NCBI RefSeq assembly: GCF_003367075.2
Contig: NZ_CP065936.1
Coordinates: 3,060,001-3,092,000 of the forward strand
Source: Cylindrospermopsis raciborskii Cr2010
GTDB taxonomy: Bacteria > Cyanobacteriota > Cyanobacteriia > Cyanobacteriales > Nostocaceae
DNA: 32,000 nucleotides
Direction: 5' to 3'
This document shows positions 3,709-18,085 of this stretch, in pieces; positions within the stretch are counted from its first letter, which is position 1; the number at the start of each line of letters is the position of its first letter. The notes under the pieces were generated by a model. It searched no databases, was not told where the DNA came from, and was given only the letters and a program-made list of their open reading frames with translations. Made by a program: the position numbers and the translations under genes.

Positions 3709-3752
3709 ACATGCTCTATTACAATTCTAAGAAATTGGACTAATCATTACAG

Positions 3753-4850
3753 ATGAGCCAAGAAGTAAACCTAAAAAACTTGCCTTTGGGGATAAACACG
3801 CTGGACAAACTGCGTGGTAGTGACTGTGTCTATGTGGACAAAACGCATTTGGCATTAAAACTGATTAAACAACCTGGTGCGTTTTTTTTGTCACGACCAA
3901 GACGCTTTGGCAAAAGTCTATTCAAGGACATCACTATTAGCGAAGCTTACTCATCCATCTGTGGTTATACTGAAACCGATCTGCGAGAGTCCTTCGGTGA
4001 CCACCTTGAGGGAGTAGATTGGGATGCACTGCGCCATTGGTACAATGGTTATAATTGGACAGGTTCAGAGACTGTTTATAACCCCTACGATATCCTCCTC
4101 TTCATTAGCGAAGGCATGAGATTTCGTAATTACTGGTTTGAAACGGGTAGTCCCAGCTTTTTACTCAAACTGTTCCAGAAGGAGCGGTATTTCCTACCTA
4201 ATTTGGAGGGAATGGAGGTAACGGAGGAAATACTTGATTCCTTTGATGTGGAGCAGATTAACCCAGTGACCCTCCTGTTTCAGTCTGGTTATCTGACCAT
4301 TAAGGACACATTTACAGATATCAACCAAATAGTGTTTTGCTTGGGTATACCCAATATGGAGGTGAAGATTGCCCTCAACAACCAGTTTATCAACGCCTAT
4401 ACCAAATTAGTAAACGAAAAATTAGGTGTACAAAGACTGATACATACCCAACTGAGTTCTGGAGATGTAGAAGGCTTAGTCAGCACCATCAAGCGATTAT
4501 TTGCCTCCATTCCTTGGCGGAATTTCACTAATAACGACCTAGCGGATTTTGAAGGATATTATACTTCTGTGATTTACGCCTTCCTCAGTTCCTTGGATGC
4601 TCGAGTGATTCCAGAAGATATCACTAATCATGGTCAGTCGGACTTAACTGTTATGGTGGAGGGACACATTTATGTGATGGAAATCAAGGTGGTAGAGGGG
4701 AATCAAGTCCGGGATAATGCAGCACTTGACCAAATCCTCCAGCGAAACTATGCTGAAAAATACCGTGGGGAACCGGGAAAATCTGTCCATGAAATTGGTT
4801 TGATATTTAGTCGCAGCCAAAGGGATCTTATACAAGCGAACTGGCAATAA
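3753..4850 (+). CDS. Array copy 1 (A-del-P): internally deleted DUF1703-type paralog that keeps the P-loop and the PD-(D/E)XK domain but lacks the ATPase core
   Basis: 365-aa ORF. The N-terminus MSQEV...SRPRRFGKSLF is joined directly to KDITISEAYSSICGYTE at nt 3922/3923. Relative to full-length copies, 468 bp (156 codons) are missing in frame, including Walker B VLVDEYD. It carries private substitutions not seen in other copies (EGMEV, YYTSVIY, VEGH, RDLIQANWQ). It may be a decaying or nuclease-only derivative. Confidence 0.7.
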   Translation: MSQEVNLKNLPLGINTLDKLRGSDCVYVDKTHLALKLIKQPGAFFLSRPRRFGKSLFKDITISEAYSSICGYTETDLRESFGDHLEGVDWDALRHWYNGYNWTGSETVYNPYDILLFISEGMRFRNYWFETGSPSFLLKLFQKERYFLPNLEGMEVTEEILDSFDVEQINPVTLLFQSGYLTIKDTFTDINQIVFCLGIPNMEVKIALNNQFINAYTKLVNEKLGVQRLIHTQLSSGDVEGLVSTIKRLFASIPWRNFTNNDLADFEGYYTSVIYAFLSSLDARVIPEDITNHGQSDLTVMVEGHIYVMEIKVVEGNQVRDNAALDQILQRNYAEKYRGEPGKSVHEIGLIFSRSQRDLIQANWQ

Positions 4851-4908
4851 GTCTGGTTAAGAATTGACCTGCTCTAATAAGAGCCTAATATATTGGATTA
4901 ATCACTAC

Positions 4909-6477
4909 ATGATGAGCCAAGAAGTAGACGTAAAAAACTTGCCGTTAGGGATAAATACGCTAGACAAAATGCGTGGTAGTAACTGTGTCTATGTGGACAA
5001 AACGAGTTTCGCATTAAGATTAATTAAACAACCTGGAGCGTTCTTTCTGTCACGACCAAGACGCTTTGGCAAAAGTCTATTTGTGGATACTCTGAAGGAG
5101 ATATTCGAGGGGAATGAAAAATTGTTTGAGGGACTCTATATTCATGACAAATGGGACTGGAGTCGTAAATTCCCAGTAATTAAGATTGATTTTGCGGATG
5201 GAGTATTAAAAAACCGGGAAGAGTTGGATAAACGTGTATTAGACCTTTTGCGCAAGAATGCGGAGCGCCTGGGAGTATCCTACGAGTCAAATGATATACC
5301 AGGGAAATTTGGAACCCTGATTGGGGAAGCAGTGGCTAAATATGGTACTAGAGCAGTAGTATTGGTAGATGAATACGACAAACCAATCCTCGATAATATA
5401 GATAACCCAAATATCGCCGCTGAAATGCGAGAGGGACTGAAAAACCTTTACTCAGTGTTGAAGGGTCAAGATGCCAACCTCCAGTTCGTGTTTATGACTG
5501 GAGTCACTAAGTTTTCTAAGGTCAGCCTATTTAGTGGAATTAATCAACTAACGGACATCACCATTGATAAACAATACTCATCCATCTGTGGTTATACTGA
5601 AACCGACCTGCGGGAGTCCTTCGGTGACCACCTTGAGGGAGTAGATTTTGACCAAGTGCGCAATTGGTACAATGGTTATAATTGGACAGGATCGGAGACT
5701 GTTTATAATCCCTATGACATCTTGCTGTTTATTGGAAAAGGCCAAGTTTTCCGTAACTACTGGTTTGAAACGGGTAGTCCCAGCTTTCTACTCAAACTGT
5801 TCCAGAAGGAGCGTTATTTCCTACCCAATTTGGAGGGAATCGAGGTAACGGAGGAAATACTTGATTCCTTTGATGTGGAGCAGATTAACCCAGTGACCCT
5901 CCTGTTTCAGTCTGGTTATCTGACCATTAAGGACACATTTACAGATATCAACCAAATAGTGTTTTGCTTGGGTATACCCAATATGGAGGTGAAGATTGCC
6001 CTCAACAACCAGTTTATCAACGCCTATACCAAATTAGTAAACGAAAAGTTAGGTGTACAAAGACTGATACATACCCAACTGAGTTCTGGAGATGTAGAAG
6101 GCTTAGTCAGCACCATCAAGCGATTATTTGCCTCCATTCCTTGGCGGAATTTCACTAATAATGACCTAGCGGATTTTGAAGGATATTATGCCTCTGTGAT
6201 TTACGCCTTCTTGAGTTCCTTGGATGCTCGAGTGATTCCAGAAGATATCACTAATCATGGTCAGTCGGACTTAACTGTTATGGTGGGGGGACACATCTAT
6301 GTGATGGAAATCAAGGTGGTAGAGGGGAATCAAGTCCGGGATAATGCAGCACTTGACCAAATCCTCCAGCGAAACTATGCTGAAAAATACCGTGGGGAAC
6401 CGGGAAAATCTGTCCATGAAATTGGTTTGATATTTAGTCGCAGCCAACGGAATCTTATACAAGCGGACTGGCACTGA
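4909..6477 (+). CDS. Array copy 2 (A-X-P): AAA-ATPase_like (PF09820-type) + PD-(D/E)XK PDDEXK_9 (PF08011-type) protein
   Basis: Motifs YVDKT, SRPRRFGKS (P-loop), VVLVDEYD (Walker B), FVFMTGV, DLADFEGYY, GQSD...YVMEIKV (D...ExK). The start is taken at ATG 4909 (or 4912, MSQEV, matching copy 1). The TTG at 4864 used by the ORF track lies inside a promoter-like TTGACC and adds 15 non-conserved residues. Confidence 0.85.
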   Translation: MMSQEVDVKNLPLGINTLDKMRGSNCVYVDKTSFALRLIKQPGAFFLSRPRRFGKSLFVDTLKEIFEGNEKLFEGLYIHDKWDWSRKFPVIKIDFADGVLKNREELDKRVLDLLRKNAERLGVSYESNDIPGKFGTLIGEAVAKYGTRAVVLVDEYDKPILDNIDNPNIAAEMREGLKNLYSVLKGQDANLQFVFMTGVTKFSKVSLFSGINQLTDITIDKQYSSICGYTETDLRESFGDHLEGVDFDQVRNWYNGYNWTGSETVYNPYDILLFIGKGQVFRNYWFETGSPSFLLKLFQKERYFLPNLEGIEVTEEILDSFDVEQINPVTLLFQSGYLTIKDTFTDINQIVFCLGIPNMEVKIALNNQFINAYTKLVNEKLGVQRLIHTQLSSGDVEGLVSTIKRLFASIPWRNFTNNDLADFEGYYASVIYAFLSSLDARVIPEDITNHGQSDLTVMVGGHIYVMEIKVVEGNQVRDNAALDQILQRNYAEKYRGEPGKSVHEIGLIFSRSQRNLIQADWH

Positions 6478-6513
6478 ATTTTGACTTTGCAATAATTGCA
6501 ATAATGGGGTGTT

Positions 6514-8067
6514 ATGAATTTACAAAATTTGCCCTTGGGGATCAATACCCTGAGTGTGTTGCGTGAAAACAATTGTGTCTATGTAGATAAAACAAAGTTG
6601 GCTTACCATCTTATCCGGATTGCGGGAAGATTTTTTCTGTCACGACCAAGACGCTTTGGCAAAAGTCTATTTGTGGATACCCTGAAGGAGATATTCGAGG
6701 GGAATGAAAAATTGTTTGAGGGGCTCTATATTCATGACAAATGGGACTGGAGTCGTAAATTCCCAGTAATTAAGATTGATTTTGCGGATGGGGTATTAAA
6801 AAACCGGGAAGAGTTGGATAAACGTGTATTAGACCTTTTGCGCAAGAATGCGGAGCGCCTGGGAGTATCCTACGAGTCAAATGATATACCAGGGAAATTT
6901 GGAACCCTGATTGGGGAAGCAGTGGCTAAATATGGTACTAGAGCAGTAGTACTGGTAGATGAATACGACAAACCAATCCTCGATAATATAGACAATCCAA
7001 ATATCGCCGCTGAAATGCGAGAGGGACTGAAAAACCTTTACTCAGTGCTAAAGGGTCAAGATGCCAACCTCCAGTTCGTGTTTATGACTGGAGTCACTAA
7101 GTTCTCCAACGTCAGCCTATTTAGTGGGATTAATCAACTAACGGACATCACCATTAATAACCAATACTCATCCATCTGTGGTTATACTGAAACCGACCTG
7201 CGGGAGTCCTTCGGTGACCACCTTGAGGGAGTAGATTTTGACCAAGTGCGCAATTGGTACAATGGTTATAATTGGACAGGATCGGAGACTGTTTATAATC
7301 CCTATGACATCTTGCTGTTTATTGGAAAAGGCCAAGTTTTCCGTAACTACTGGTTTGAAACGGGTAGTCCCAGCTTTCTACTCAAACTGTTCCAGAAGGA
7401 GCGTTATTTCCTACCCAATTTGGAGGGAATCGAGGTAACGGAGGAAATACTTGATTCCTTTGATGTGGAGCAGATTAACCCAGTGACCCTCCTGTTTCAG
7501 TCTGGTTATCTGACCATTAAGGACACATTTACAGATATCAACCAAATAGTGTTTTGCTTGGGTATACCCAATATGGAGGTGAAGATTGCCCTCAACAACC
7601 AGTTTATCAACGCCTATACCAAATTAGTAAACGAAAAGTTAGGTGTACAAAGACTGATACATACCCAACTGAGTTCTGGAGATGTAGAAGGCTTAGTCAG
7701 CACCATCAAGCGATTATTTGCCTCCATTCCTTGGCGGAATTTCACTAATAACGACCTAGCGGATTTTGAAGGATATTATGCTTCTGTGATTTACGCCTTC
7801 CTCAGTTCCTTGGATGCTCGAGTGATTCCAGAAGATATCACTAATCATGGTCAGTCGGACTTAACTGTTATGGTGGGGGGACACATCTATGTGATGGAAA
7901 TCAAGGTGGTAGAGGGGAATCAAGTCCGGGATAATGCAGCACTTGACCAAATCCTCCAGCGAAACTATGCTGAAAAATACCGTGGGGAACCGGGAAAATC
8001 TGTCCATGAAATTGGTTTGATATTTAGTCGCAGCCAACGGAATCTTATACAAGCGGACTGGCACTGA
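6514..8067 (+). CDS. Array copy 3 (B-X-P): AAA-ATPase_like + PD-(D/E)XK (PDDEXK_9) protein
   Basis: 517-aa ORF with the same motif set as copy 2. B-type N-terminus MNLQNLPLGINTLSVLRENNCVYVDKTKLAYHLIRIAGRFF. From about nt 6640 it matches copy 2 at an offset of 1590 bp with scattered SNPs. Confidence 0.87.
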   Translation: MNLQNLPLGINTLSVLRENNCVYVDKTKLAYHLIRIAGRFFLSRPRRFGKSLFVDTLKEIFEGNEKLFEGLYIHDKWDWSRKFPVIKIDFADGVLKNREELDKRVLDLLRKNAERLGVSYESNDIPGKFGTLIGEAVAKYGTRAVVLVDEYDKPILDNIDNPNIAAEMREGLKNLYSVLKGQDANLQFVFMTGVTKFSNVSLFSGINQLTDITINNQYSSICGYTETDLRESFGDHLEGVDFDQVRNWYNGYNWTGSETVYNPYDILLFIGKGQVFRNYWFETGSPSFLLKLFQKERYFLPNLEGIEVTEEILDSFDVEQINPVTLLFQSGYLTIKDTFTDINQIVFCLGIPNMEVKIALNNQFINAYTKLVNEKLGVQRLIHTQLSSGDVEGLVSTIKRLFASIPWRNFTNNDLADFEGYYASVIYAFLSSLDARVIPEDITNHGQSDLTVMVGGHIYVMEIKVVEGNQVRDNAALDQILQRNYAEKYRGEPGKSVHEIGLIFSRSQRNLIQADWH

Positions 8068-8103
8068 ATTTTGACTTTGCAATAATTGCAATAATGGGGT
8101 GTT

Positions 8104-9657
8104 ATGAATTTACAAAATTTGCCCTTGGGGATCAATACCCTGAGCGTGTTGCGTGAAAACAATTGTGTCTATGTAGATAAAACAAAGTTGGCTTACCATC
8201 TTATCCGGATTGCAGGAAGATTCTTTTTGTCGCGACCAAGACGCTTTGGCAAAAGTCTATTTGTGGATACCCTGAAAGAGATATTCGAGGGGAATGAAAA
8301 ATTGTTTGAGGGGCTCTATATTCATGACAAATGGGACTGGAGTCGTAAATTCCCAGTAATTAAGATTGATTTTGCTGGTGGTGTGCTCAGAAACCGGGAG
8401 GAGCTGGACAAAAAAATTAATGGTATGCTGTTGAAAACCACAAAGTCCTTGAGGATTAACTGCGAACTGGACGATATTCAAGGACGTTTTGGAGAAATCA
8501 TCGCTGGTGCAAGGGAGCAGTTTGGTGAAAGGGTGGTGGTGCTGGTAGATGAATACGACAAACCAATTCTCGATAATATAGATAAACCAAATATCGCCGC
8601 TGAAATGCGAGAGGGACTGAAAAACTTTTACTCAGTGTTGAAGAGTCAAGATGCCAACCTCCAGTTCGTGTTTATGACTGGAGTCACTAAGTTTTCCAAG
8701 GTCAGCCTATTTAGTGGGATTAATCAACTCAAGGACATCACTATTAGCGAAGCTTACTCATCCATCTGTGGTTATACTGAAACCGACCTGCGAGAGTCCT
8801 TCGGTGACCACCTTGAGGGAGTAGATTTTGACCAAGTGCGCAATTGGTACAATGGTTATAATTGGACAGGTTCAGAGACTGTTTATAACCCCTACGATAT
8901 CCTCCTCTTCATTAGTGAAGGTATGAGATTTCGCAACTACTGGTTTGAGACGGGTAGTCCCACATTCCTAGTCAAGTTGTTTCAAACCAATCGCTATTTC
9001 CTTCCCAACCTGGAACATTTGGAGGTTACAGAGGAGATATTGGAATCCTTTGAAGTAGAAAAGATTAATCCAGTTACCTTGTTGTTTCAATCAGGGTATT
9101 TGACTATTGAACGAACCTTTACCCGTCGCCAACGCTACATGTTTGCACTGAAAATTCCCAACTTGGAAGTTCGTCTGGCATTGAATGACCAGTTTATTAA
9201 CGCCTATACGGAAAATGTGAACGAAAAGAGTGGGATTCAAGACTCTCTATACGAGTTTATGAATAGAGGGGATGTGGAATCAATGATTATGGCAATTAAG
9301 AGATTGTTTGCGGGTATTCCCTGGCGGAATTTCACTAATAATGACCTAGCGGATTTTGAAGGATATTATGCCTCTGTGATTTACGCCTTCTTGAGTTCCT
9401 TAGATGCTAGAGTTATCCCGGAGGACATTAGCAACTATGGTCAAGCGGATATAACCACCATGCTTGGAGCCCATATCTATGTGATGGAAATCAAGGTGGT
9501 AGAGGGGAATCAAGTCCAGGGAAATCCAGCACTTGACCAAATCCTCCAGCGAAACTATGCTGAAAAATACCGTGGGGAACCGGGAAAATCTGTCCATGAG
9601 ATTGGTTTGATATTTAGTCGCAGCCAACAAAATCTTATACAAGCGGACTGGCAATAA
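8104..9657 (+). CDS. Array copy 4 (B-Y-Q): AAA-ATPase_like + PD-(D/E)XK (PDDEXK_9) protein
   Basis: 517-aa ORF with all catalytic motifs intact. Y mid cassette (ELDKKINGMLLKTTKSLRINCELDDIQGR). Q C-half cassette (TFLVKLFQTNRYF...SNYGQADITTMLGAH). Confidence 0.87.
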   Translation: MNLQNLPLGINTLSVLRENNCVYVDKTKLAYHLIRIAGRFFLSRPRRFGKSLFVDTLKEIFEGNEKLFEGLYIHDKWDWSRKFPVIKIDFAGGVLRNREELDKKINGMLLKTTKSLRINCELDDIQGRFGEIIAGAREQFGERVVVLVDEYDKPILDNIDKPNIAAEMREGLKNFYSVLKSQDANLQFVFMTGVTKFSKVSLFSGINQLKDITISEAYSSICGYTETDLRESFGDHLEGVDFDQVRNWYNGYNWTGSETVYNPYDILLFISEGMRFRNYWFETGSPTFLVKLFQTNRYFLPNLEHLEVTEEILESFEVEKINPVTLLFQSGYLTIERTFTRRQRYMFALKIPNLEVRLALNDQFINAYTENVNEKSGIQDSLYEFMNRGDVESMIMAIKRLFAGIPWRNFTNNDLADFEGYYASVIYAFLSSLDARVIPEDISNYGQADITTMLGAHIYVMEIKVVEGNQVQGNPALDQILQRNYAEKYRGEPGKSVHEIGLIFSRSQQNLIQADWQ

Positions 9658-9715
9658 GTCTGGTTAAGAATTGACCTGCTCTAATAAGAGCCTAATATAT
9701 TGGATTAATCACTAC

Positions 9716-11284
9716 ATGATGAGCCAAGAAGTAGACGTAAAAAACTTGCCGTTAGGGATAAATACGCTAGACAAAATGCGTGGTAGTAACTGTGTCTATG
9801 TGGACAAAACGAGTTTCGCATTAAGATTAATTAAACAACCTGGAGCGTTCTTTCTGTCACGACCAAGACGCTTTGGCAAAAGTCTATTTGTGGATACCCT
9901 GAAGGAGATATTCGAGGGGAATGAAAAATTGTTTGAGGGGCTCTATATTCATGACAAATGGGACTGGAGTCGTAAATTCCCAGTAATTAAGATTGATTTT
10001 GCTGGTGGTGTGCTCAGAAACCGGGAGGAGCTGGACAAAAAAATTAATGGTATGCTGTTGAAAACCACAAAGTCCTTGAGGATTAACTGCGAACTGGACG
10101 ATATTCAAGGACGTTTTGGAGAAATCATCGCTGGTGCAAGGGAGCAGTTTGGTGAAAGGGTGGTGGTGCTGGTAGATGAATACGACAAACCAATTCTCGA
10201 TAATATAGATAAACCAAATATCGCCGCTGAAATGCGAGAGGGACTGAAAAACTTTTACTCAGTGTTGAAGAGTCAAGATGCCAACCTCCAGTTCGTGTTT
10301 ATGACTGGAGTCACTAAGTTTTCCAAGGTCAGCCTATTTAGTGGGATTAATCAACTCAAGGACATCACTATTAGCGAAGCTTACTCATCCATCTGTGGTT
10401 ATACTGAAACCGACCTGCGAGAGTCCTTCGGTGACCACCTTGAGGGAGTAGATTTTGACCAAGTGCGCAATTGGTACAATGGTTATAATTGGACAGGTTC
10501 AGAGACTGTTTATAACCCCTACGATATCCTCCTCTTCATTAGTGAAGGTATGAGATTTCGCAACTACTGGTTTGAGACGGGTAGTCCCACATTCCTAGTC
10601 AAGTTGTTTCAAACCAATCGCTATTTCCTTCCCAACCTGGAACATTTGGAGGTTACAGAGGAGATATTGGAATCCTTTGAAGTAGAAAAGATTAATCCAG
10701 TTACCTTGTTGTTTCAATCAGGGTATTTGACTATTGAACGAACCTTTACCCGTCGCCAACGCTACATGTTTGCACTGAAAATTCCCAACTTGGAAGTTCG
10801 TCTGGCATTGAATGACCAGTTTATTAACGCCTATACGGAAAATGTGAACGAAAAGAGTGGGATTCAAGACTCTCTATACGAGTTTATGAATAGAGGGGAT
10901 GTGGAATCAATGATTATGGCAATTAAGAGATTGTTTGCGGGTATTCCCTGGCGGAATTTCACTAATAATGACCTAGCGGATTTTGAAGGATATTATGCCT
11001 CTGTGATTTACGCCTTCTTGAGTTCCTTAGATGCTAGAGTTATCCCGGAGGACATTAGCAACTATGGTCAAGCGGATATAACCACCATGCTTGGAGCCCA
11101 TATCTATGTGATGGAAATCAAGGTGGTAGAGGGGAATCAAGTCCAGGGAAATCCAGCACTTGACCAAATCCTCCAGCGAAACTATGCTGAAAAATACCGT
11201 GGGGAACCGGGAAAATCTGTCCATGAGATTGGTTTGATATTTAGTCGCAGCCAACAAAATCTTATACAAGCGGACTGGCAATAA
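9716..11284 (+). CDS. Array copy 5 (A-Y-Q): AAA-ATPase_like + PD-(D/E)XK (PDDEXK_9) protein
   Basis: After the N-terminal cassette the protein is identical to copy 4. The DNA at 9905-11284 is identical to 8278-9657. Start at ATG 9716/9719 rather than the track's TTG 9671. Confidence 0.85.
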   Translation: MMSQEVDVKNLPLGINTLDKMRGSNCVYVDKTSFALRLIKQPGAFFLSRPRRFGKSLFVDTLKEIFEGNEKLFEGLYIHDKWDWSRKFPVIKIDFAGGVLRNREELDKKINGMLLKTTKSLRINCELDDIQGRFGEIIAGAREQFGERVVVLVDEYDKPILDNIDKPNIAAEMREGLKNFYSVLKSQDANLQFVFMTGVTKFSKVSLFSGINQLKDITISEAYSSICGYTETDLRESFGDHLEGVDFDQVRNWYNGYNWTGSETVYNPYDILLFISEGMRFRNYWFETGSPTFLVKLFQTNRYFLPNLEHLEVTEEILESFEVEKINPVTLLFQSGYLTIERTFTRRQRYMFALKIPNLEVRLALNDQFINAYTENVNEKSGIQDSLYEFMNRGDVESMIMAIKRLFAGIPWRNFTNNDLADFEGYYASVIYAFLSSLDARVIPEDISNYGQADITTMLGAHIYVMEIKVVEGNQVQGNPALDQILQRNYAEKYRGEPGKSVHEIGLIFSRSQQNLIQADWQ

Positions 11285-11342
11285 GTCTGGTTAAGAATTG
11301 ACCTGCTCTAATAAGAGCCTAATATATTGGATTAATCACTAC

Positions 11343-12911
11343 ATGATGAGCCAAGAAGTAGACGTAAAAAACTTGCCGTTAGGGATAAATACGCTAGACA
11401 AAATGCGTGGTAGTAACTGTGTCTATGTGGACAAAACGAGTTTCGCATTAAGATTAATTAAACAACCTGGAGCGTTCTTTCTGTCACGACCAAGACGCTT
11501 TGGCAAAAGTCTATTTGTGGATACCCTGAAGGAGATATTCGAGGGGAATGAAAAATTGTTTGAGGGGCTCTATATTCATGACAAATGGGAATGGAGTCGT
11601 AAATTCCCAGTAATTAAGATTGATTTTGCTGGTGGTGTGCTCAGAAACCGGGAAGAGTTGGATGAAAAGATTCGGGATCTCCTTTGGAATAACGGCGATC
11701 GCCTGGGGGTTGGCTCGAAAAAGAAGAGTATCAGCGGGATTTTTGGAGAAATCATCGCTGGTGCAAGGGAGCAGTTTGGTGAAAGGGTAGTGGTGCTGGT
11801 AGATGAATACGACAAACCGATTCTCGATAATATAGATAACCCAAATATCGCCGCTGAAATGCGAGAGGGACTGAAAAACTTTTACTCAGTGTTGAAGAGT
11901 CAAGATGCCAACCTCCAGTTCGTGTTTATGACTGGAGTCACTAAGTTTTCTAAGGTCAGCCTATTTAGTGGGATTAATCAACTAACGGACATCACTATTA
12001 GCGAAGCTTACTCATCCATCTGTGGTTATACTGAAACCGACCTGCGAGAGTCCTTCGGTGACCACCTTGAGGGAGTAGATTGGGATGCACTGCGCCATTG
12101 GTACAATGGTTATAATTGGACAGGCTCAGAGACTGTTTATAACCCCTACGATATCCTCCTCTTCATTAACGAAGGCATGAGATTTCGTAACTACTGGTTT
12201 GAAACGGGTAGTCCCAGCTTTCTACTCAAACTGTTCCAGAAGGAGCGGTATTTCCTACCTAATTTGGAGGGAATCCAGGTAACGGAGGAAATACTTGATT
12301 CCTTTGATGTGGAGCAGATTAACCCAGTGACCCTCCTGTTTCAGTCTGGTTATCTGACCATTAAGGACATATTTACAGATATCAACCAAATAGTGTTTTG
12401 TTTGGGTATACCCAATATGGAGGTGAAGATTGCTCTCAACAACCAGTTTATCAACGCCTATACCAAATTAGTAAACGAAAAGTTAGGTGTACAAAGACTG
12501 ATACATACCCAACTGAGTTCTGGAGATGTAGAAGGCTTAGTCAGCACCATCAAGCGATTATTTGCCTCCATTCCTTGGCGGAATTTCACTAATAACGACC
12601 TAGCGGATTTTGAAGGATATTATGCTTCTGTGATTTACGCCTTCCTCAGTTCCTTGGATGCTCGAGTTATCCCAGAAGATATCACTAATCATGGTCAGTC
12701 GGACTTAACTGTTATGGTGGGGGGACACATTTATGTGATGGAAATCAAGGTGGTAGAGGGGAATCAAGTCCAGGGAAATCCAGCACTTGACCAAATCCTC
12801 CAGCGAAACTATGCTGAAAAATACCGTGGGGAACCGGGAAAATCTGTCCATGAGATTGGTTTGATATTTAGTCGCAGCCAACAAAATCTTATACAAGCGG
12901 ACTGGCACTAA
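11343..12911 (+). CDS. Array copy 6 (A-Z-P): AAA-ATPase_like + PD-(D/E)XK (PDDEXK_9) protein
   Basis: The spacer and N-terminus are identical to copy 5. Z mid cassette (ELDEKIRDLLWNNGDRLGVGSKKKSISGI), which contains a HIP1 site at 11695-11702. P C-half with the QGNPA tail variant. Start at ATG 11343/11346 rather than TTG 11298. Confidence 0.85.
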   Translation: MMSQEVDVKNLPLGINTLDKMRGSNCVYVDKTSFALRLIKQPGAFFLSRPRRFGKSLFVDTLKEIFEGNEKLFEGLYIHDKWEWSRKFPVIKIDFAGGVLRNREELDEKIRDLLWNNGDRLGVGSKKKSISGIFGEIIAGAREQFGERVVVLVDEYDKPILDNIDNPNIAAEMREGLKNFYSVLKSQDANLQFVFMTGVTKFSKVSLFSGINQLTDITISEAYSSICGYTETDLRESFGDHLEGVDWDALRHWYNGYNWTGSETVYNPYDILLFINEGMRFRNYWFETGSPSFLLKLFQKERYFLPNLEGIQVTEEILDSFDVEQINPVTLLFQSGYLTIKDIFTDINQIVFCLGIPNMEVKIALNNQFINAYTKLVNEKLGVQRLIHTQLSSGDVEGLVSTIKRLFASIPWRNFTNNDLADFEGYYASVIYAFLSSLDARVIPEDITNHGQSDLTVMVGGHIYVMEIKVVEGNQVQGNPALDQILQRNYAEKYRGEPGKSVHEIGLIFSRSQQNLIQADWH

Positions 12912-12938
12912 ATCTTGACTTTGCAATAATGGGGTGTT

Positions 12939-14492
12939 ATGAATTTACAAAATTTGCCCTTGGGGATCAATACCCTGAGTGTGTTGCGTGAAAACAATTG
13001 TGTCTATGTAGATAAAACAAAGTTGGCTTACCATCTTATCAGGATTGCAGGAAGATTCTTTTTGTCACGACCAAGACGCTTTGGCAAAAGTCTATTTGTG
13101 GATACCCTGAAGGAGATATTCGAGGGGAATGAAAAATTGTTTGAGGGACTCTATATTCATGACAAATGGGACTGGAGTTGTAAATTCCCAGTCATTAAGA
13201 TTGATTTTGCTGGTGGTGTTCTCAGAAACCGGGAGGAGCTGGACAAAAAAATTAATGGTATGCTGTTGAAAACCACAAAGTCCTTGAGGATTAACTGCGA
13301 ACTGGACGATATTCAAGGACGTTTTGGAGAAATCATCGCTGGTGCAAGGGAGCAGTTTGGTGAAAGGGTAGTGGTGCTGGTAGATGAATACGACAAACCG
13401 ATTCTCGATAATATAGATAACCCAAATATCGCCGCTGAAATGCGAGAGGGACTGAAAAACTTTTACTCAGTGTTGAAGAGTCAAGATGCCAACCTCCAGT
13501 TCGTGTTTATGACTGGAGTCACTAAGTTTTCTAAGGTCAGCCTATTTAGTGGGATTAATCAACTAACGGACATCACTATTAGCGAAGCTTACTCATCCAT
13601 CTGTGGTTATACTGAAACCGACCTGCGAGAGTCCTTCGGTGACCACCTTGAGGGAGTAGATTGGGATGCACTGCGCCATTGGTACAATGGTTATAATTGG
13701 ACAGGCTCAGAGACTGTTTATAACCCCTACGATATCCTCCTCTTCATTAACGAAGGCATGAGATTTCGTAACTACTGGTTTGAAACGGGTAGTCCCAGCT
13801 TTCTACTCAAACTGTTCCAGAAGGAGCGGTATTTCCTACCTAATTTGGAGGGAATCCAGGTAACGGAGGAAATACTTGATTCCTTTGATGTGGAGCAGAT
13901 TAACCCAGTGACCCTCCTGTTTCAGTCTGGTTATCTGACCATTAAGGACATATTTACAGATATCAACCAAATAGTGTTTTGTTTGGGTATACCCAATATG
14001 GAGGTGAAGATTGCTCTCAACAACCAGTTTATCAACGCCTATACCAAATTAGTAAACGAAAAGTTAGGTGTACAAAGACTGATACATACCCAACTGAGTT
14101 CTGGAGATGTAGAAGGCTTAGTCAGCACCATCAAGCGATTATTTGCCTCCATTCCTTGGCGGAATTTCACTAATAACGACCTAGCGGATTTTGAAGGATA
14201 TTATGCTTCTGTGATTTACGCCTTCCTCAGTTCCTTGGATGCTCGAGTTATCCCAGAAGATATCACTAATCATGGTCAGTCGGACTTAACTGTTATGGTG
14301 GGGGGACACATTTATGTGATGGAAATCAAGGTGGTAGAGGGGAATCAAGTCCGGGATAATGCAGCACTTGACCAAATCCTCCAGCGAAACTATGCTGAAA
14401 AGTACCGTGGGGAACCGAGAAAATCTGTCCATGAAATTGGTTTGATATTTAGTCGCAGCCAACGGAACCTTATACAAGCGGACTGGCACTGA
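12939..14492 (+). CDS. Array copy 7 (B-Y-P): AAA-ATPase_like + PD-(D/E)XK (PDDEXK_9) protein
   Basis: 517-aa ORF. B N-terminus, Y mid cassette as in copies 4 and 5, P C-half as in copy 6. Private change WSCKF. Preceded by the short 27-nt spacer variant. Confidence 0.87.
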   Translation: MNLQNLPLGINTLSVLRENNCVYVDKTKLAYHLIRIAGRFFLSRPRRFGKSLFVDTLKEIFEGNEKLFEGLYIHDKWDWSCKFPVIKIDFAGGVLRNREELDKKINGMLLKTTKSLRINCELDDIQGRFGEIIAGAREQFGERVVVLVDEYDKPILDNIDNPNIAAEMREGLKNFYSVLKSQDANLQFVFMTGVTKFSKVSLFSGINQLTDITISEAYSSICGYTETDLRESFGDHLEGVDWDALRHWYNGYNWTGSETVYNPYDILLFINEGMRFRNYWFETGSPSFLLKLFQKERYFLPNLEGIQVTEEILDSFDVEQINPVTLLFQSGYLTIKDIFTDINQIVFCLGIPNMEVKIALNNQFINAYTKLVNEKLGVQRLIHTQLSSGDVEGLVSTIKRLFASIPWRNFTNNDLADFEGYYASVIYAFLSSLDARVIPEDITNHGQSDLTVMVGGHIYVMEIKVVEGNQVRDNAALDQILQRNYAEKYRGEPRKSVHEIGLIFSRSQRNLIQADWH

Positions 14493-14528
14493 ATCTTGAC
14501 TTTGCAATAATTGCAATAATGGGGTGTT

Positions 14529-16082
14529 ATGAATTTACAAAATTTGCCCTTGGGGATCAATACCCTGAGCGTGTTGCGTGAAAACAATTGTGTCTATGTA
14601 GATAAAACAAAGTTGGCTTACCATCTTATCAGGATTGCAGGAAGATTCTTTTTGTCGCGACCAAGACGCTTTGGTAAAAGTCTATTTGTGGATACCCTGA
14701 AAGAGATATTCGAGGGGAATGAAAAATTGTTTGAGGGGCTCTATATTCATGACAAATGGGAATGGAGTCGTAAGTTTCCCGTAATTAAGATTGATTTTGC
14801 TGGTGGTGTGATCAGAAACCGGGAAGAGTTGGATGAAAAGATTCGGGATCTCCTTTGGAATAATGGCGATCGCCTGGGGGTTGGCTCGAAAAAGAAGAGT
14901 ATCAGCGGGATTTTTGGAGAAATCATCGCTGGTGCAAGGGAGCAGTTTGGTGAAAGGATAGTGGTGCTGGTAGATGAATACGACAAACCGATTCTCGATA
15001 ATATAGACAATCCAAATATCGCCGCTGAAATGCGAGAGGGACTGAAAAACCTTTACTCAGTGTTGAAGAGTCAAGATGCCAACCTCCAGTTCGTGTTTAT
15101 GACTGGAGTCACTAAGTTTTCTAAGGTCAGCCTATTTAGTGGGATTAATCAACTAACGGACATCACTATTAGCGAAGCTTACTCATCCATCTGTGGTTAT
15201 ACTGAAACCGACCTGCGAGAGTCCTTCGGTGACCACCTTGAGGGAGTAGATTGGGATGCACTGCGCCATTGGTACAATGGTTATAATTGGACAGGCTCAG
15301 AGACTGTTTATAACCCCTACGATATCCTCCTCTTCATTAACGAAGGCATGAGATTTCGTAACTACTGGTTTGAAACGGGTAGTCCCAGCTTTCTACTCAA
15401 ACTGTTCCAGAAGGAGCGGTATTTCCTACCTAATTTGGAGGGAATCCAGGTAACGGAGGAAATACTTGATTCCTTTGATGTGGAGCAGATTAACCCAGTG
15501 ACCCTCCTGTTTCAGTCTGGTTATCTGACCATTAAGGACATATTTACAGATATCAACCAAATAGTGTTTTGTTTGGGTATACCCAATATGGAGGTGAAGA
15601 TTGCTCTCAACAACCAGTTTATCAACGCCTATACCAAATTAGTAAACGAAAAGTTAGGTGTACAAAGACTGATACATACCCAACTGAGTTCTGGAGATGT
15701 AGAAGGCTTAGTCAGCACCATCAAGCGATTATTTGCCTCCATTCCTTGGCGGAATTTCACTAATAACGACCTAGCGGATTTTGAAGGATATTATGCTTCT
15801 GTGATTTACGCCTTCCTCAGTTCCTTGGATGCTCGAGTTATCCCAGAAGATATCACTAATCATGGTCAGTCGGACTTAACTGTTATGGTGGGGGGACACA
15901 TTTATGTGATGGAAATCAAGGTGGTAGAGGGGAATCAAGTCCGGGATAATGCAGCACTTGACCAAATCCTCCAGCGAAACTATGCTGAAAAGTACCGTGG
16001 GGAACCGAGAAAATCTGTCCATGAAATTGGTTTGATATTTAGTCGCAGCCAACGGAACCTTATACAAGCGGACTGGCACTGA
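14529..16082 (+). CDS. Array copy 8 (B-Z-P): AAA-ATPase_like + PD-(D/E)XK (PDDEXK_9) protein
   Basis: 517-aa ORF. The C-terminal two thirds are base-identical to copy 7. The N-terminal two fifths are base-identical to copy 9. Confidence 0.87.
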   Translation: MNLQNLPLGINTLSVLRENNCVYVDKTKLAYHLIRIAGRFFLSRPRRFGKSLFVDTLKEIFEGNEKLFEGLYIHDKWEWSRKFPVIKIDFAGGVIRNREELDEKIRDLLWNNGDRLGVGSKKKSISGIFGEIIAGAREQFGERIVVLVDEYDKPILDNIDNPNIAAEMREGLKNLYSVLKSQDANLQFVFMTGVTKFSKVSLFSGINQLTDITISEAYSSICGYTETDLRESFGDHLEGVDWDALRHWYNGYNWTGSETVYNPYDILLFINEGMRFRNYWFETGSPSFLLKLFQKERYFLPNLEGIQVTEEILDSFDVEQINPVTLLFQSGYLTIKDIFTDINQIVFCLGIPNMEVKIALNNQFINAYTKLVNEKLGVQRLIHTQLSSGDVEGLVSTIKRLFASIPWRNFTNNDLADFEGYYASVIYAFLSSLDARVIPEDITNHGQSDLTVMVGGHIYVMEIKVVEGNQVRDNAALDQILQRNYAEKYRGEPRKSVHEIGLIFSRSQRNLIQADWH

Positions 16083-16118
16083 ATCTTGACTTTGCAATAA
16101 TTGCAATAATGGGGTGTT

Positions 16119-17672
16119 ATGAATTTACAAAATTTGCCCTTGGGGATCAATACCCTGAGCGTGTTGCGTGAAAACAATTGTGTCTATGTAGATAAAACAA
16201 AGTTGGCTTACCATCTTATCAGGATTGCAGGAAGATTCTTTTTGTCGCGACCAAGACGCTTTGGTAAAAGTCTATTTGTGGATACCCTGAAAGAGATATT
16301 CGAGGGGAATGAAAAATTGTTTGAGGGGCTCTATATTCATGACAAATGGGAATGGAGTCGTAAGTTTCCCGTAATTAAGATTGATTTTGCTGGTGGTGTG
16401 ATCAGAAACCGGGAAGAGTTGGATGAAAAGATTCGGGATCTCCTTTGGAATAATGGCGATCGCCTGGGGGTTGGCTCGAAAAAGAAGAGTATCAGCGGGA
16501 TTTTTGGAGAAATCATCGCTGGTGCAAGGGAGCAGTTTGGTGAAAGGATAGTGGTGCTGGTAGATGAATACGACAAACCGATTCTCGATAATATAGACAA
16601 TCCAAATATCGCCGCTGAAATGCGAGAGGGACTGAAAAACCTTTACTCAGTGTTGAAGAGTCAAGATGCCAACCTCCAGTTCGTGTTTATGACTGGAGTC
16701 ACTAAGTTTTCTAAGGTCAGCCTATTTAGTGGGATTAATCAACTCAAGGACATCACTATTAGCGAAGCTTACTCATCCATCTGTGGTTATACTGAAACCG
16801 ACCTGCGAGAGTCCTTCGGTGACCACCTTGAGGGAGTAGATTGGGATGCACTGCGCCATTGGTACAATGGTTATAATTGGACAGGTTCAGAGACTGTTTA
16901 TAACCCCTACGATATCCTCCTCTTCATTAGTGAAGGTATGAGATTTCGCAACTACTGGTTTGAGACGGGTAGTCCCACATTCCTAGTCAAGTTGTTTCAA
17001 ACCAATCGCTATTTCCTTCCCAACCTGGAACATTTGGAGGTTACAGAGGAGATATTGGAATCCTTTGAAGTAGAAAAGATTAATCCAGTTACCTTGTTGT
17101 TTCAATCAGGGTATTTGACTATTGAACGAACCTTTACCCGTCGCCAACGCTACATGTTTGCACTGAAAATTCCCAACTTGGAAGTTCGTCTGGCATTGAA
17201 TGACCAGTTTATTAACGCCTATACGGAAAATGTGAACGAAAAGAGTGGGATTCAAGACTCTCTATACGAGTTTATGAATAGAGGGGATGTGGAATCAATG
17301 ATTATGGCAATTAAGAGATTGTTTGCGGGTATTCCCTGGCGGAATTTCACTAATAATGACCTAGCGGATTTTGAAGGATATTATGCCTCTGTGATTTACG
17401 CCTTCTTGAGTTCCTTAGATGCTAGAGTTATCCCGGAGGACATTAGCAACTATGGTCAAGCGGATATAACCACCATGCTTGGAGCCCATATCTATGTGAT
17501 GGAAATCAAGGTGGTAGAGGGGAATCAAGTCCAGGGAAATCCAGCACTTGACCAAATCCTCCAGCGAAACTATGCTGAAAAATACCGTGGGGAACCGGGA
17601 AAATCTGTCCATGAGATTGGTTTGATATTTAGTCGCAGCCAACGGAACCTTATACAAGCGGACTGGCAATAA
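16119..17672 (+). CDS. Array copy 9 (B-Z-Q): AAA-ATPase_like + PD-(D/E)XK (PDDEXK_9) protein, patchwork of copy-8-like and copy-4/5-like segments
   Basis: 517-aa ORF. Positions 16119-16744 are identical to copy 8. The Q cassette from about 16866 matches copy 4 at an offset of 8015 bp. The WDALRH patch resembles copies 6-8. The tail mixes QGNPA (as copies 4-6), RN (as copies 7-8) and WQ-TAA-gtctggtta (as copies 4-5). Confidence 0.87.
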   Translation: MNLQNLPLGINTLSVLRENNCVYVDKTKLAYHLIRIAGRFFLSRPRRFGKSLFVDTLKEIFEGNEKLFEGLYIHDKWEWSRKFPVIKIDFAGGVIRNREELDEKIRDLLWNNGDRLGVGSKKKSISGIFGEIIAGAREQFGERIVVLVDEYDKPILDNIDNPNIAAEMREGLKNLYSVLKSQDANLQFVFMTGVTKFSKVSLFSGINQLKDITISEAYSSICGYTETDLRESFGDHLEGVDWDALRHWYNGYNWTGSETVYNPYDILLFISEGMRFRNYWFETGSPTFLVKLFQTNRYFLPNLEHLEVTEEILESFEVEKINPVTLLFQSGYLTIERTFTRRQRYMFALKIPNLEVRLALNDQFINAYTENVNEKSGIQDSLYEFMNRGDVESMIMAIKRLFAGIPWRNFTNNDLADFEGYYASVIYAFLSSLDARVIPEDISNYGQADITTMLGAHIYVMEIKVVEGNQVQGNPALDQILQRNYAEKYRGEPGKSVHEIGLIFSRSQRNLIQADWQ

Positions 17673-17728: not shown

Positions 17729-17758
17729 TTGACAACTCAACAGTTGGCGTGATAAAAT
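17729..17758 (+). promoter_or_regulatory. Sigma70-type promoter candidate for the small membrane protein and kinase genes
   Basis: TTGACA at 17729-17734, then a 17/18-nt spacer, then ATAAAAT (TAAAAT at 17753-17758). It lies 40 nt upstream of ATG 17798. Motif match only. Confidence 0.4.
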
Positions 17759-17797: not shown

Positions 17798-18085
17798 ATG
17801 ACAGTTTGGTTGATATGCTTCTTATTATTATTTGCCATAGCGGAGGTATTCAGCTGGGCTTTTGACTGGTTGGGAGAGTTATCTCTACCCTTACCTATAC
17901 ACATTTTGGCAGGGTCAATTTTAGCCGTCGCTTCTAACTATGATAGGATACTAGCTCCTTATAACTATAATGGGGAATTTTGGTCAAGAACATCGAGAAT
18001 AGACAATACTACACCGGAGATAACCGTATCTCCAGCTGCAATTAACTACAATCTTTTAGATCAAGAAAATATTAACAATAACTAA
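17798..18085 (+). CDS. Hypothetical small membrane protein (95 aa)
   Basis: ATG-initiated ORF with two hydrophobic helices (WLICFLLLFAIAEVF and PIHILAGSILAVA) and a purine-rich stretch (gagtgaagaaaaa) before the ATG. No recognisable domain. Confidence 0.5.
   Translation: MTVWLICFLLLFAIAEVFSWAFDWLGELSLPLPIHILAGSILAVASNYDRILAPYNYNGEFWSRTSRIDNTTPEITVSPAAINYNLLDQENINNN

What the first reader, a model, noticed from the sequence alone, without database searches (positions are those of the whole stretch)
3753..17672. Catalytic motifs are invariant while variation maps to two inserts, pointing to a diversified specificity module on a conserved NTPase-nuclease chassis (hypothesis)
The P-loop, the DLADFEGYY block, VIPEDI, the GQ(S/A)D aspartate and YVMEIKVVEGNQV are identical in all nine copies. 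Walker B and FVFMTGVTKFS are identical in all eight full-length copies.

The hypervariable blocks lie between Walker A and Walker B and between the ATPase and the nuclease core. This is the pattern expected if enzymatic function is under purifying selection while recognition surfaces are swapped.

The pattern is reminiscent of specificity-subunit shuffling in restriction systems or paralog expansion in immune receptors. That is an inference. A selfish or neutral amplification is the alternative.
Basis: inference. Interest (0 to 1): 0.75.

Follow-up and report, generated by a model that had tools for sequence, protein, structure and literature searches.

The report
Recombining tandem ATPase-nuclease gene array
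Nine side-by-side copies of a widespread, uncharacterised ATPase-nuclease gene in a Cylindrospermopsis-type cyanobacterium are patchworks of a few old, well-conserved cassette types joined to a shared backbone by recombination between neighbours, which hints at swapped recognition modules without proving it.

Summary
The motif invariance is real. The nine ORFs (3753-17672, + strand) all belong to the known DUF1703 family (Pfam AAA-ATPase_like plus PDDEXK_9), whose function is unknown. "Two hypervariable inserts" is the wrong description. The variable segments have the same length in all full-length copies, are present family-wide, and occur as only 2-3 discrete types each: N-terminus A/B, a helix-loop-helix X/Y/Z between Walker A and B, and a hairpin-plus-helices block P/Q. 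Between types, synonymous sites are saturated. Within a type, the one cassette tested (type X) is under strong purifying selection (ω about 0.1). The backbone is about 97% identical within an array but only 77% identical between arrays. So the backbone evolves in concert while cassette types persist across arrays and are reassorted. Copies 5 and 8 are exact chimeras of their neighbours. A nearly identical strain (flanks 99.7-99.95% identical) has the same locus with seven copies. Independent arrays in other bacteria vary in the same segments. AlphaFold models place X/Y/Z on a helical hairpin between strand 2 and the Walker B strand, and P/Q on a winged-helix-like hairpin and linker. A role in recognition is plausible but untested. 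No known defence model matches and no partner gene is conserved. This is a known family and a known kind of expansion, with a sharper evolutionary signature.

The parts
3753..4850 (+). Copy 1 (365 aa): keeps the P-loop, then has an in-frame deletion of about 156 aa that removes Walker B and the sensor block. The lid, winged-helix-like and nuclease parts are intact. Block types are A / - / P.
   Evidence: The same truncated gene exists in strain CP091284.1, but there its 3' part is type Q.
4912..6477 (+). Copy 2 (521 aa from the ATG at 4912; the mechanical ORF starts at the TTG at 4864). Block types A-X-P.
6514..8067 (+). Copy 3 (517 aa). Block types B-X-P. AlphaFold model me8c7fe0b801b.
8104..9657 (+). 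Copy 4 (517 aa). Block types B-Y-Q. AlphaFold model m68175ffd0a11. The protein is identical to one encoded in CP091284.1.
9719..11284 (+). Copy 5 (types A-Y-Q). An exact chimera: the 5' part matches copy 6 and the 3' part matches copy 4. It has no counterpart in the 7-copy strain.
   Evidence: 338 informative sites, one switch, no private site
9905..9963 (+). Crossover interval of copy 5. It lies in the homogenised backbone just after the P-loop.
   Evidence: last difference from copy 4 at unit position 247, first difference from copy 6 at 307
11346..12911 (+). Copy 6 (types A-Z-P, with the QGNP C-terminal variant).
12939..14492 (+). Copy 7 (types B-Y-P). Its upstream spacer is 9 nt shorter than the other type-B spacers.
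14529..16082 (+). Copy 8 (types B-Z-P). An exact chimera: the 5' part matches copy 9 and the 3' part matches copy 7. It has no counterpart in the 7-copy strain.
   Evidence: 256 informative sites, one switch, no private site
15052..15154 (+). Crossover interval of copy 8. It lies in the homogenised backbone, at codons of about 175-209.
16119..17672 (+). Copy 9 (types B-Z-Q).
8233..8256 (+). Walker A variant RPRRFGKS, given in copy 4 coordinates (residues 44-51). The same block is present in all nine copies.
   Evidence: PMC1913061
8398..8535 (+). X/Y/Z cassette, given in copy 4 (residues 99-144): helix 98-116, loop 117-124, helix 125-140. It sits between strand 2 (85-89) and the Walker B strand (144-149).
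8536..8559 (+). Walker B VVLVDEYD, given in copy 4 (residues 145-152).
8920..9477 (+). P/Q block, given in copy 4 (residues 273-458). Its most divergent part is the beta hairpin 334-350 and helices 354-403. It runs into the first strands of the nuclease domain, where the differences are mostly synonymous.
9346..9654 (+). PD-(D/E)XK nuclease domain, given in copy 4 (residues 415-517): E419, D449, E462-x-K464, Q479.
   Evidence: PMC1913061

Best explanation
**What it is.** This is a tandem array of paralogous DUF1703 genes. Each encodes a stand-alone enzyme with an N-terminal AAA+ ATPase whose closest folds are Apaf-1 (a STAND ATPase) and Orc1/Cdc6. A helical lid and a winged-helix-like module follow, and a PD-(D/E)XK nuclease ends the protein.

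**How the array evolves.** The genes share a backbone that homologous recombination between copies keeps nearly identical. This backbone includes the ATPase and nuclease motifs. Three modules are embedded in it, each as a few old, discrete types:
- the N-terminus (types A and B);
- a helix-loop-helix between strand 2 and the Walker B strand (types X, Y and Z);
- a hairpin-plus-helices block before the nuclease (types P and Q).

Crossovers in the backbone reassort the modules and change copy number. Closely related strains therefore carry different repertoires.

**What is shown.** Family membership, the mosaic structure, two exact unequal-crossover chimeras, concerted evolution of the backbone, persistence of cassette types across arrays, purifying selection within cassette type X, and the position of the cassettes on predicted secondary structure.

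**What is inferred.** The cassettes set what each paralogue binds, either a nucleic acid or a protein partner. ATP-dependent assembly licenses the nuclease. The array serves a conflict or defence role by covering several targets.
For: **Family**
- All nine copies hit PF09820 and PF08011 well above the curated cut-offs.
- The Walker A variant RPRRFGKS, Walker B DEYD and nuclease motifs I-IV match the published description of DUF1703 (PMC1913061).

**Mosaic and recombination**
- The block types of each copy are listed.
- Copy 5 is copy 6 (5') plus copy 4 (3'). Copy 8 is copy 9 (5') plus copy 7 (3'). Neither has a private site among 338 and 256 informative sites.
- Strain CP091284.1 has flanks 99.95% and 99.7% identical and orthologous copies 99.3-100% identical. 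It lacks exactly these two copies and has the 3' part of copy 1 swapped from P to Q.
- A third strain has different combinations.

**Age versus constraint**
- Between types, dS is saturated and ω is 0.1-0.25. The backbone has dS 0.07-0.3.
- Backbone nucleotide identity is 96.8-97.5% within an array but 76.7% between this array and a C. curvispora array. Cassette X is 74.6% identical between the two arrays, whereas different types within this array are 55% identical.
- Within type X, ω is 0.09-0.12 over dS 1.5-1.8.

**Generality**
- Among 116 near relatives, X, Y and Z each occur with both P and Q.
- Three independent arrays vary in the same segments. Each module is either nearly identical or saturated between two copies.

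**Structure**
- Two models (pLDDT 84 and 83, pTM 0.81 and 0.80) have the same secondary structure for the Y-Q and X-P variants.
- The top Foldseek matches are Apaf-1 (E 1e-6), Cdc6/Orc1 bound to origin DNA (2qby_B) and NLRC4.
- Variable positions are mostly polar, and the hydrophobic positions of the helices are kept.
- The hairpin loop and the wing differ in net charge between types: loop -2, -2 and +3; wing -1 and +4.

**Stand-alone gene**
- No neighbour family is shared by more than 10 of 80 loci.
Against: - No experiment or annotated relative links the family to any function. PADLOC, NCBIfam and PDB sequence searches found nothing.
- Positions that vary in the array are also the least conserved positions family-wide: 1.89 versus 0.59 bits among near relatives, and 3.04 versus 1.98 bits among diverse representatives. 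So low constraint explains part of the pattern.
- Only one short stretch, Y versus Z at codons 107-132, reaches ω of about 1.25, and it rests on about 40 differences.
- Across the family the hairpin loop is mostly acidic or neutral and the wing charge centres on zero. That fits poorly with generic DNA-backbone contact.
- The window is not a defence island. The neighbours are pyruvate kinase, a CHASE2 kinase, LytB and a phosphate transporter.
- The link to the initiator-specific motif and to a winged helix rests on secondary-structure order and whole-chain Foldseek hits with low TM-scores (0.24-0.29). No residue-level superposition was possible.
Confidence: 0.5

Rival explanations
1. The mosaic is neutral. 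The array descends from two or three diverged paralogues. Recombination homogenises the parts that protein constraint keeps similar. It cannot start in the already diverged, weakly constrained parts, so those ride along as islands. The cassette types have no distinct functions.
For: - Variable positions coincide with the family's least conserved positions.
- Both crossovers fall in homogenised backbone.
- ω is below 1 almost everywhere.
- Copy number changes between nearly identical strains.
Against: - Within type X the cassette is strongly conserved (ω about 0.1 over dS of 1.5 or more), so that cassette is not weakly constrained sequence.
- All three X/Y/Z types are kept in each of three strains at this locus. 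Type X has also survived in a second array whose backbone was homogenised separately.
- The same modules show the all-or-nothing pattern in independent arrays.
- Inference: pure gain and loss of whole units by unequal crossing-over would give all blocks the same coalescence depth.
Confidence: 0.25
2. The cassettes are assembly interfaces rather than target-recognition surfaces. In Apaf-1-type and initiator-type ATPases the hairpin between strand 2 and Walker B lines the ring hub. The types would decide which paralogues co-assemble, either insulating them from one another or forming mixed rings.
For: - The cassette sits where the hub-forming hairpin of Apaf-1-like folds sits (the hub role is from general knowledge of apoptosome structures).
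- The loop charge is reversed between types, +3 in Z and -2 in X and Y. That could allow complementary contacts.
- The loops are mostly acidic family-wide, which fits a protein contact better than a DNA contact.
Against: - No oligomer model could be computed.
- Most family members are single-copy genes, so mixed rings cannot be the general rule.
- The idea does not explain the P/Q block.
Confidence: 0.15
3. The array is a selfish or mobile amplification. The gene spreads and multiplies for its own sake, like an insertion element or a homing nuclease.
For: - Distribution is patchy across phyla and includes plasmids.
- Arrays are embedded in unrelated contexts, for example inside an exopolysaccharide cluster.
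- The family is expanded in some genomes (PMC6387759).
Against: - There are no terminal repeats at the array borders and no transposase or integrase in the window.
- The copies are head-to-tail with 27-61 nt spacers at one fixed locus in three strains. That is what unequal crossing-over produces, not transposition.
- The family is rare in phage and plasmid records: 31 of 50,697 and 67 of 72,556.
Confidence: 0.05
4. Copies 5 and 8 are assembly errors. Alternatively, the 7-copy strain is a collapsed assembly and the difference in copy number is not biological.
For: - Both extra copies are exact chimeras with no private mutation.
- Arrays of 1.6-kb units at 77-96% identity are hard to assemble.
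- Many database relatives sit on contigs of 1.5-6 kb, which suggests drafts break here.
Against: - The array is seen in three independent assemblies with intact reading frames.
- Each chimera keeps an open frame and has a single clean junction in the backbone, as a real crossover would.
- A third strain has still other combinations.
- This rival affects only two copies, not the mosaic as a whole.
Confidence: 0.1

Closest known systems
DUF1703 family (Pfam PF09820 AAA-ATPase_like + PF08011 PDDEXK_9), described by Knizewski et al. 2007 (PMC1913061)
   Same: The four-part architecture, the Walker A variant RPRRFGKS, Walker B DEYD and nuclease motifs I-IV all match. All nine copies score far above the Pfam cut-offs.
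   Different: Nothing in the protein itself differs. The published work does not describe tandem arrays or cassette types, and the function is still unknown.
DUF1703 expansion in Cardinium cCpun (PMC6387759)
   Same: It is the same family. There are many paralogues in one genome and evidence of recombination among them. The authors also report that about 10% of species carry 10 or more copies.
   Different: The authors report about 39% average amino-acid identity among the Cardinium paralogues and no homogenisation. Here the copies form a tight head-to-tail array with a backbone about 97% identical and only 2-3 discrete types per module.
Tandem esaG and tipC immunity-gene arrays of type VII secretion systems (PMC9484751)
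   Same: The evolutionary mechanism is the same. Conserved homology blocks let tandem paralogues recombine. This produces chimeras and copy gain or loss between closely related strains.
   Different: The proteins are unrelated. Those are small immunity proteins matched to a known polymorphic toxin. No matching partner is known here.
Swapping of target-recognition domains in the specificity subunit (HsdS) of Type I restriction-modification systems
   Same: Discrete, deeply diverged, internally conserved modules are flanked by conserved sequence that acts as the recombination substrate. The comparison is from general knowledge of these systems.
   Different: There is no methyltransferase or restriction partner and no conserved neighbour at all. 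There are no inverted copies and no recombinase. The modules sit inside a complete enzyme rather than a separate specificity subunit.
Orc1/Cdc6 initiators and STAND ATPases (Apaf-1, NLRC4), including antiviral STAND proteins with nuclease effectors
   Same: These are the best fold matches. All have an ATPase followed by a lid and a winged-helix-like module, and two helices between strand 2 and the Walker B strand.
   Different: This protein has a C-terminal PD-(D/E)XK nuclease and no C-terminal repeat sensor. There is no detectable sequence similarity to solved structures and no PADLOC hit.

Membership tests
DUF1703 (PF09820 + PF08011) | Both Pfam domains present in N-to-C order, above the gathering scores | tested here: met
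   Full-length copies score 208-214 bits (cut-off 26.1) and 58-65 bits (cut-off 25.5). Copy 1 scores 57 and 64 bits.
DUF1703 (PF09820 + PF08011) | Walker A variant RPRRFGKS and Walker B DEYD | tested here: met
   definition from PMC1913061. Copy 1 lacks Walker B.
DUF1703 (PF09820 + PF08011) | PD-(D/E)XK motifs I-IV: acidic residue in helix 1, D, ExK, and Q in helix 2 | tested here: met
   E419, D449, E462-x-K464 and Q479 are present in all nine copies. They are conserved in 100-106 of 110 diverse representatives.
AAA+ initiator / STAND-like fold | Fold similarity of the ATPase, lid and winged-helix region to Orc1/Cdc6 or Apaf-1 | tested here: met
   Apaf-1 E 1e-6, 2qby_B (Cdc6/Orc1 bound to DNA) E 8e-4, NLRC4 E 8e-4. 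Whole-chain TM-scores are low (0.24-0.29), so the clade assignment stays open.
AAA+ initiator / STAND-like fold | Extra helix between strand 2 and the Walker B strand (initiator-specific motif) | tested here: inconclusive
Known or candidate anti-phage defence systems (PADLOC-DB 2.0) | Match to a defence-protein model | tested here: not met
   no family at E up to 0.1 for three copies.
Antiviral STAND (Avs-type) proteins | C-terminal repeat sensor domain next to the NTPase, with an N-terminal effector | tested here: not met
   The protein ends with the nuclease and the ATPase is N-terminal. No further Pfam domain is found.
Type I R-M specificity-subunit shuffling, shufflons, diversity-generating retroelements | Partner methylase or restriction genes, inverted cassettes with a recombinase, or a reverse transcriptase with a template repeat | tested here: not met
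   All copies are direct repeats. The window has no recombinase or reverse transcriptase. No neighbour is conserved across 80 loci.
Tandem-paralogue recombination arrays (esaG type) | Conserved homology blocks, chimeric copies, and copy gain or loss between close strains | tested here: met
Mobile element | Terminal repeats, target-site duplication, or a transposase or integrase | tested here: not met
   Searches found no repeats at the borders. Searches found no such gene.

The most novel reading that the evidence does not exclude
DUF1703 arrays are germline-encoded combinatorial receptor-nuclease repertoires. Selection maintains old recognition cassettes on the helical hairpin and on the winged-helix wing. 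Backbone recombination reshuffles them, giving each strain its own set of ATP-gated nucleases against different invading nucleic acids or proteins. That would assign a role to a family of more than 15,000 sequence clusters that currently has no known function.
Probability: 0.15. Interest if true: 0.8.

Novelty: new member of a known kind. Interest (0 to 1): 0.45.

Why it matters
DUF1703 is a very large family: 15,158 clusters at 50% identity match at E ≤ 0.001. It combines an ATPase and a nuclease and has no known function. The array gives the family a clear, testable signature. It has a homogenised catalytic backbone and a small set of old, internally conserved cassettes at two defined structural elements, reshuffled between close strains. 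This tells an experimenter which residues to swap and which natural variants to compare. The array is also a clean natural example of concerted evolution and long-lived polymorphism side by side within one gene.

Tried and rejected
**Searches that found nothing**
- PADLOC and NCBIfam scans gave no hit.
- PDB sequence searches with one protein and with a 71-sequence profile gave no meaningful hit.
- Rfam and tRNA scans of the window found nothing.
- Consensus scans found no terminators between copies and no convincing internal promoters.
- A search for a conserved partner gene in 80 loci found none.
- A test for terminal repeats at the array borders found none.
- Literature searches for this array in Cylindrospermopsis, or for a defence role of the family, found nothing specific. 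One review lists PF09820 among domains that match RdrA, PARIS and Old-tin (PMC10952713), but this is a domain listing only.
- A look-up of P0022, meant to add a fourth strain, failed.

**Readings rejected**
- Hypervariability driven by an arms race: the types are few, old and conserved within type.
- A shufflon or a diversity-generating retroelement: none of the required parts is present.
- Strict X/Y/Z motifs in distant family members: none found. The three types belong to the clade at about 65% identity or more.
Full report
**What is at the coordinates.** Window 3753-17672 holds nine head-to-tail ORFs on the + strand, separated by only 27-61 nt. No terminator-like site lies between them. Every copy matches Pfam PF09820 (AAA-ATPase_like) followed by PF08011 (PDDEXK_9), far above the curated cut-offs. 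This is the DUF1703 family, described in 2007 as an AAA+ module with the unusual Walker A RPRRFGKS, Walker B DEYD, a short helical region and a PD-(D/E)XK nuclease with motifs I-IV (PMC1913061). Copy 1 (365 aa) keeps the P-loop but has lost about 156 residues in frame, including Walker B. The array sits between pyruvate kinase and a CHASE2 Ser/Thr kinase. The nearest database proteins come from Cylindrospermopsis (Raphidiopsis) raciborskii.

**Checking the observation.** Their meaning differs from motif to motif.
- DLADFEGYY and YVMEIKVVEGNQV are also identical at every nucleotide in all nine copies. Within the array this shows recent common descent or conversion, not selection.
- VIPEDI has synonymous differences in 6 of 6 codons, Walker B in 4 codons and the P-loop block in 3. 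None has an amino-acid change.
- The N-terminal part of the nuclease has ω 0.07 at dS 0.93. The catalytic residues are near-invariant in 110 representatives at 35-57% identity. Purifying selection on the chemistry is therefore real.

The phrase "two hypervariable inserts" does not hold. Variation falls in an N-terminal block (residues 1-40), the block between Walker A and B, a long block before and into the nuclease, and several short patches. All full-length copies align without gaps in these blocks. Across the family the first block has essentially no indels. Each block has only two or three haplotypes, each shared by several copies.

**The array is a mosaic built by recombination.** Coding each copy by block type gives the following:
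- c1: A, deletion, P
- c2: A-X-P
- c3: B-X-P
- c4: B-Y-Q
- c5: A-Y-Q
- c6: A-Z-P
- c7: B-Y-P
- c8: B-Z-P
- c9: B-Z-Q

Copy 5 is identical to copy 6 up to unit position 247-306 and identical to copy 4 after that. It has one switch and no private site among 338 informative sites. Copy 8 is copy 9 (5') joined to copy 7 (3'), again with one switch and no private site among 256 sites. Both junctions lie in backbone sequence.

Strain CP091284.1 encodes a protein identical to copy 4. It has the same locus with seven copies, lacking exactly c5 and c8. Its flanks are 99.95% and 99.7% identical to the window, and its orthologous copies are 99.3-100% identical. In addition, the 3' part of its truncated first copy is type Q (99.35% identical to c9) where the window has type P. 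Three recombination events therefore separate two nearly identical strains: two unequal crossovers and one conversion-like replacement. A third strain carries still other combinations.

An assembly error cannot be excluded for the two chimeras. The array itself appears in three assemblies.

**Age, not only constraint, separates the blocks.** Between cassette types, synonymous sites are saturated (dS above 2 or undefined) and ω is 0.1-0.25. In the backbone, dS is 0.07-0.3. In 60-nt windows, divergence between two copies is bimodal.

A comparison with a second array, five copies at another locus in C. curvispora, shows this directly. Backbone identity is 96.8-97.5% within each array but 76.7% between them, with 49% identity at third codon positions. 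Cassette X is 74.6% identical between the arrays, whereas different types inside this array are only 55% identical. The backbone has therefore been homogenised separately in each array, while type X is older than the split between the two arrays.

Within type X, ω is 0.09-0.12 over dS 1.5-1.8, and the loop LGVSYES(N/T)DIPGK is kept. At least type X is therefore a constrained unit, not loose sequence. Only Y versus Z at codons 107-132 approaches ω of 1.25, on about 40 differences, which is not distinguishable from ω = 1.

**The pattern is a property of the family.**
- Among 116 near relatives, the hairpin segment forms 18 clusters and the P/Q segment 9. X, Y and Z each occur with both P and Q. 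X-, Y-, Z-, P-, Q-, A- and B-like segments are all found in other taxa.
- Positions that vary in the window are also the least conserved positions: 1.89 versus 0.59 bits among near relatives, and 3.04 versus 1.98 bits among diverse representatives, with Mann-Whitney p = 3e-21.
- Independent tandem arrays in a Desulfospira genome, a Haliscomenobacteraceae genome and C. curvispora vary most at residues 101-140, at about 341-400 and at 1-40. For any pair of copies each module is either nearly identical or saturated.
- Most family members elsewhere are single genes. They have no conserved neighbour and sit in unrelated contexts.
- The family is large: 15,158 clusters at 50% identity match at E ≤ 0.001. 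It is rare in phage and plasmid records.

**Structure.** AlphaFold models of copy 4 (Y-Q; pLDDT 84, pTM 0.81) and copy 3 (X-P; pLDDT 83, pTM 0.80) have essentially the same secondary structure, so the cassettes are equivalent in fold.
- The X/Y/Z cassette is helix 98-116, loop 117-124 and helix 125-140. It lies between strand 85-89 and the Walker B strand 144-149, with pLDDT above 90.
- The most divergent part of P/Q is a beta hairpin (334-350) that follows short helices in the manner of a winged helix, plus three helices (354-403) leading to the nuclease (415-517).
- The best Foldseek matches in the PDB are Apaf-1 (E 1e-6), an archaeal Cdc6/Orc1 bound to origin DNA, and NLRC4.

From general knowledge of those proteins, two helices between strand 2 and Walker B form the initiator-specific motif. 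That motif touches DNA in Orc1/DnaA and lines the hub in apoptosomes. The winged helix is the other DNA contact of Orc1. This equivalence is an inference from topology. I could not superpose residues.

Variable positions are mostly polar, and the hydrophobic heptad-like positions are kept. This fits surface exposure. The types differ in charge at the loop (X -2, Y -2, Z +3) and at the wing (P -1, Q +4). Against a simple DNA-contact reading, the loop is mostly acidic or neutral family-wide and the wing charge centres on zero.

**Most likely working.** I read each gene as a self-contained, ATP-regulated nuclease whose partner-binding elements come in a few old types. The array is a repertoire whose composition is reshuffled by ordinary homologous recombination in the shared backbone.

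The enzyme identity and the evolutionary mechanism are shown. Recognition by the cassettes, ATP-gated activation and a conflict or defence role are inferred. No known defence model matches and this locus is not a defence island.

The main rival is a neutral mosaic in which divergence itself blocks conversion. It explains where the variation lies. It does not explain the strong within-type conservation, or the retention of types through separate rounds of backbone homogenisation. A second rival is that the hairpin types govern which paralogues co-assemble.

**Comparison with what is known.** This is a member of DUF1703 (all defining features met). It is a further case of the lineage-specific expansion with recombination reported for Cardinium (PMC6387759), where the authors report about 39% average identity among paralogues and no homogenisation. 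The evolutionary mechanism matches that of the tandem esaG and tipC immunity arrays (PMC9484751). It resembles the swapping of specificity domains in Type I restriction systems, but it lacks every defining component of those systems, of shufflons and of diversity-generating retroelements.

**Verdict.** It is a known family and a known kind of expansion, of moderate interest as a well-defined experimental lead.

Noticed in passing
window 17798-18085 (+), with a promoter-like site at 17729-17758: A 95-aa ORF with no Pfam match lies directly downstream of the array. It is preceded by the best sigma-70-like match in the region (TTGACA, 18 nt, TAAAAT; 11 of 12). An ORF of the same length is called at this position in two other strains.
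   Followed up: partly
window 20501-21223 (+): This is a truncated ammonium-transporter gene: 240 aa covering only profile positions 12-236 of 399. Strain CP091284.1 lacks about 299 bp here (window about 20926-21225) and has a 191-aa product. It is probably a decaying pseudogene.
   Followed up: partly
window 4864-4911, 9671-9718, 11298-11345: In type-A copies the mechanical ORF starts at a TTG and adds MTCSNKSLIYWINHYM upstream of the conserved ATG. The public annotation of the sister strain starts these genes at the ATG-ATG (522 aa). The extension is probably not translated.
   Followed up: partly
window 12912-12938 compared with 6478-6513, 8068-8103, 14493-14528 and 16083-16118: Type-B spacers contain TGCAATAAT twice in tandem. 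The spacer before copy 7 has it once, so it is 27 nt rather than 36 nt. The two spacer types go with the two N-terminal types A and B.
   Followed up: no
L003 (NPIK01000002.1) 11809-12259: In another C. raciborskii assembly, the last ~235 nt of pyruvate kinase plus the start of a copy-1-like gene (90% identical to window 3473-3922) sit in the middle of a long DUF1703 array with different upstream genes. The arrays may have mediated a rearrangement. However, the locus has many frameshifts and 303 Ns, so assembly quality is doubtful.
   Followed up: partly
L087, L088, L004 (loci of relatives): Near some arrays lie other gene families of unclear function: Uma2, DUF29, SLFN_AlbA_2 with HATPase_c_4, AAA_14 with DUF4143, YhcG/DUF1016 and Fic. 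This hints at variable islands of nuclease-like genes.
   Followed up: no
window 9400-9654, 11027-11281, 17415-17669, 14747-15010, 16337-16600 (- strand): Antisense ORFs of 84-87 aa recur inside the copies. They repeat only because the units repeat. Nothing suggests they are genes.
   Followed up: no
window 3753-4850 and L001 5650-6747: The ATPase-dead truncated first copy keeps an open frame in both strains, even though its 3' two-thirds differ in type (P versus Q). Conversion may keep refreshing it, or it may have a role of its own.
   Followed up: partly
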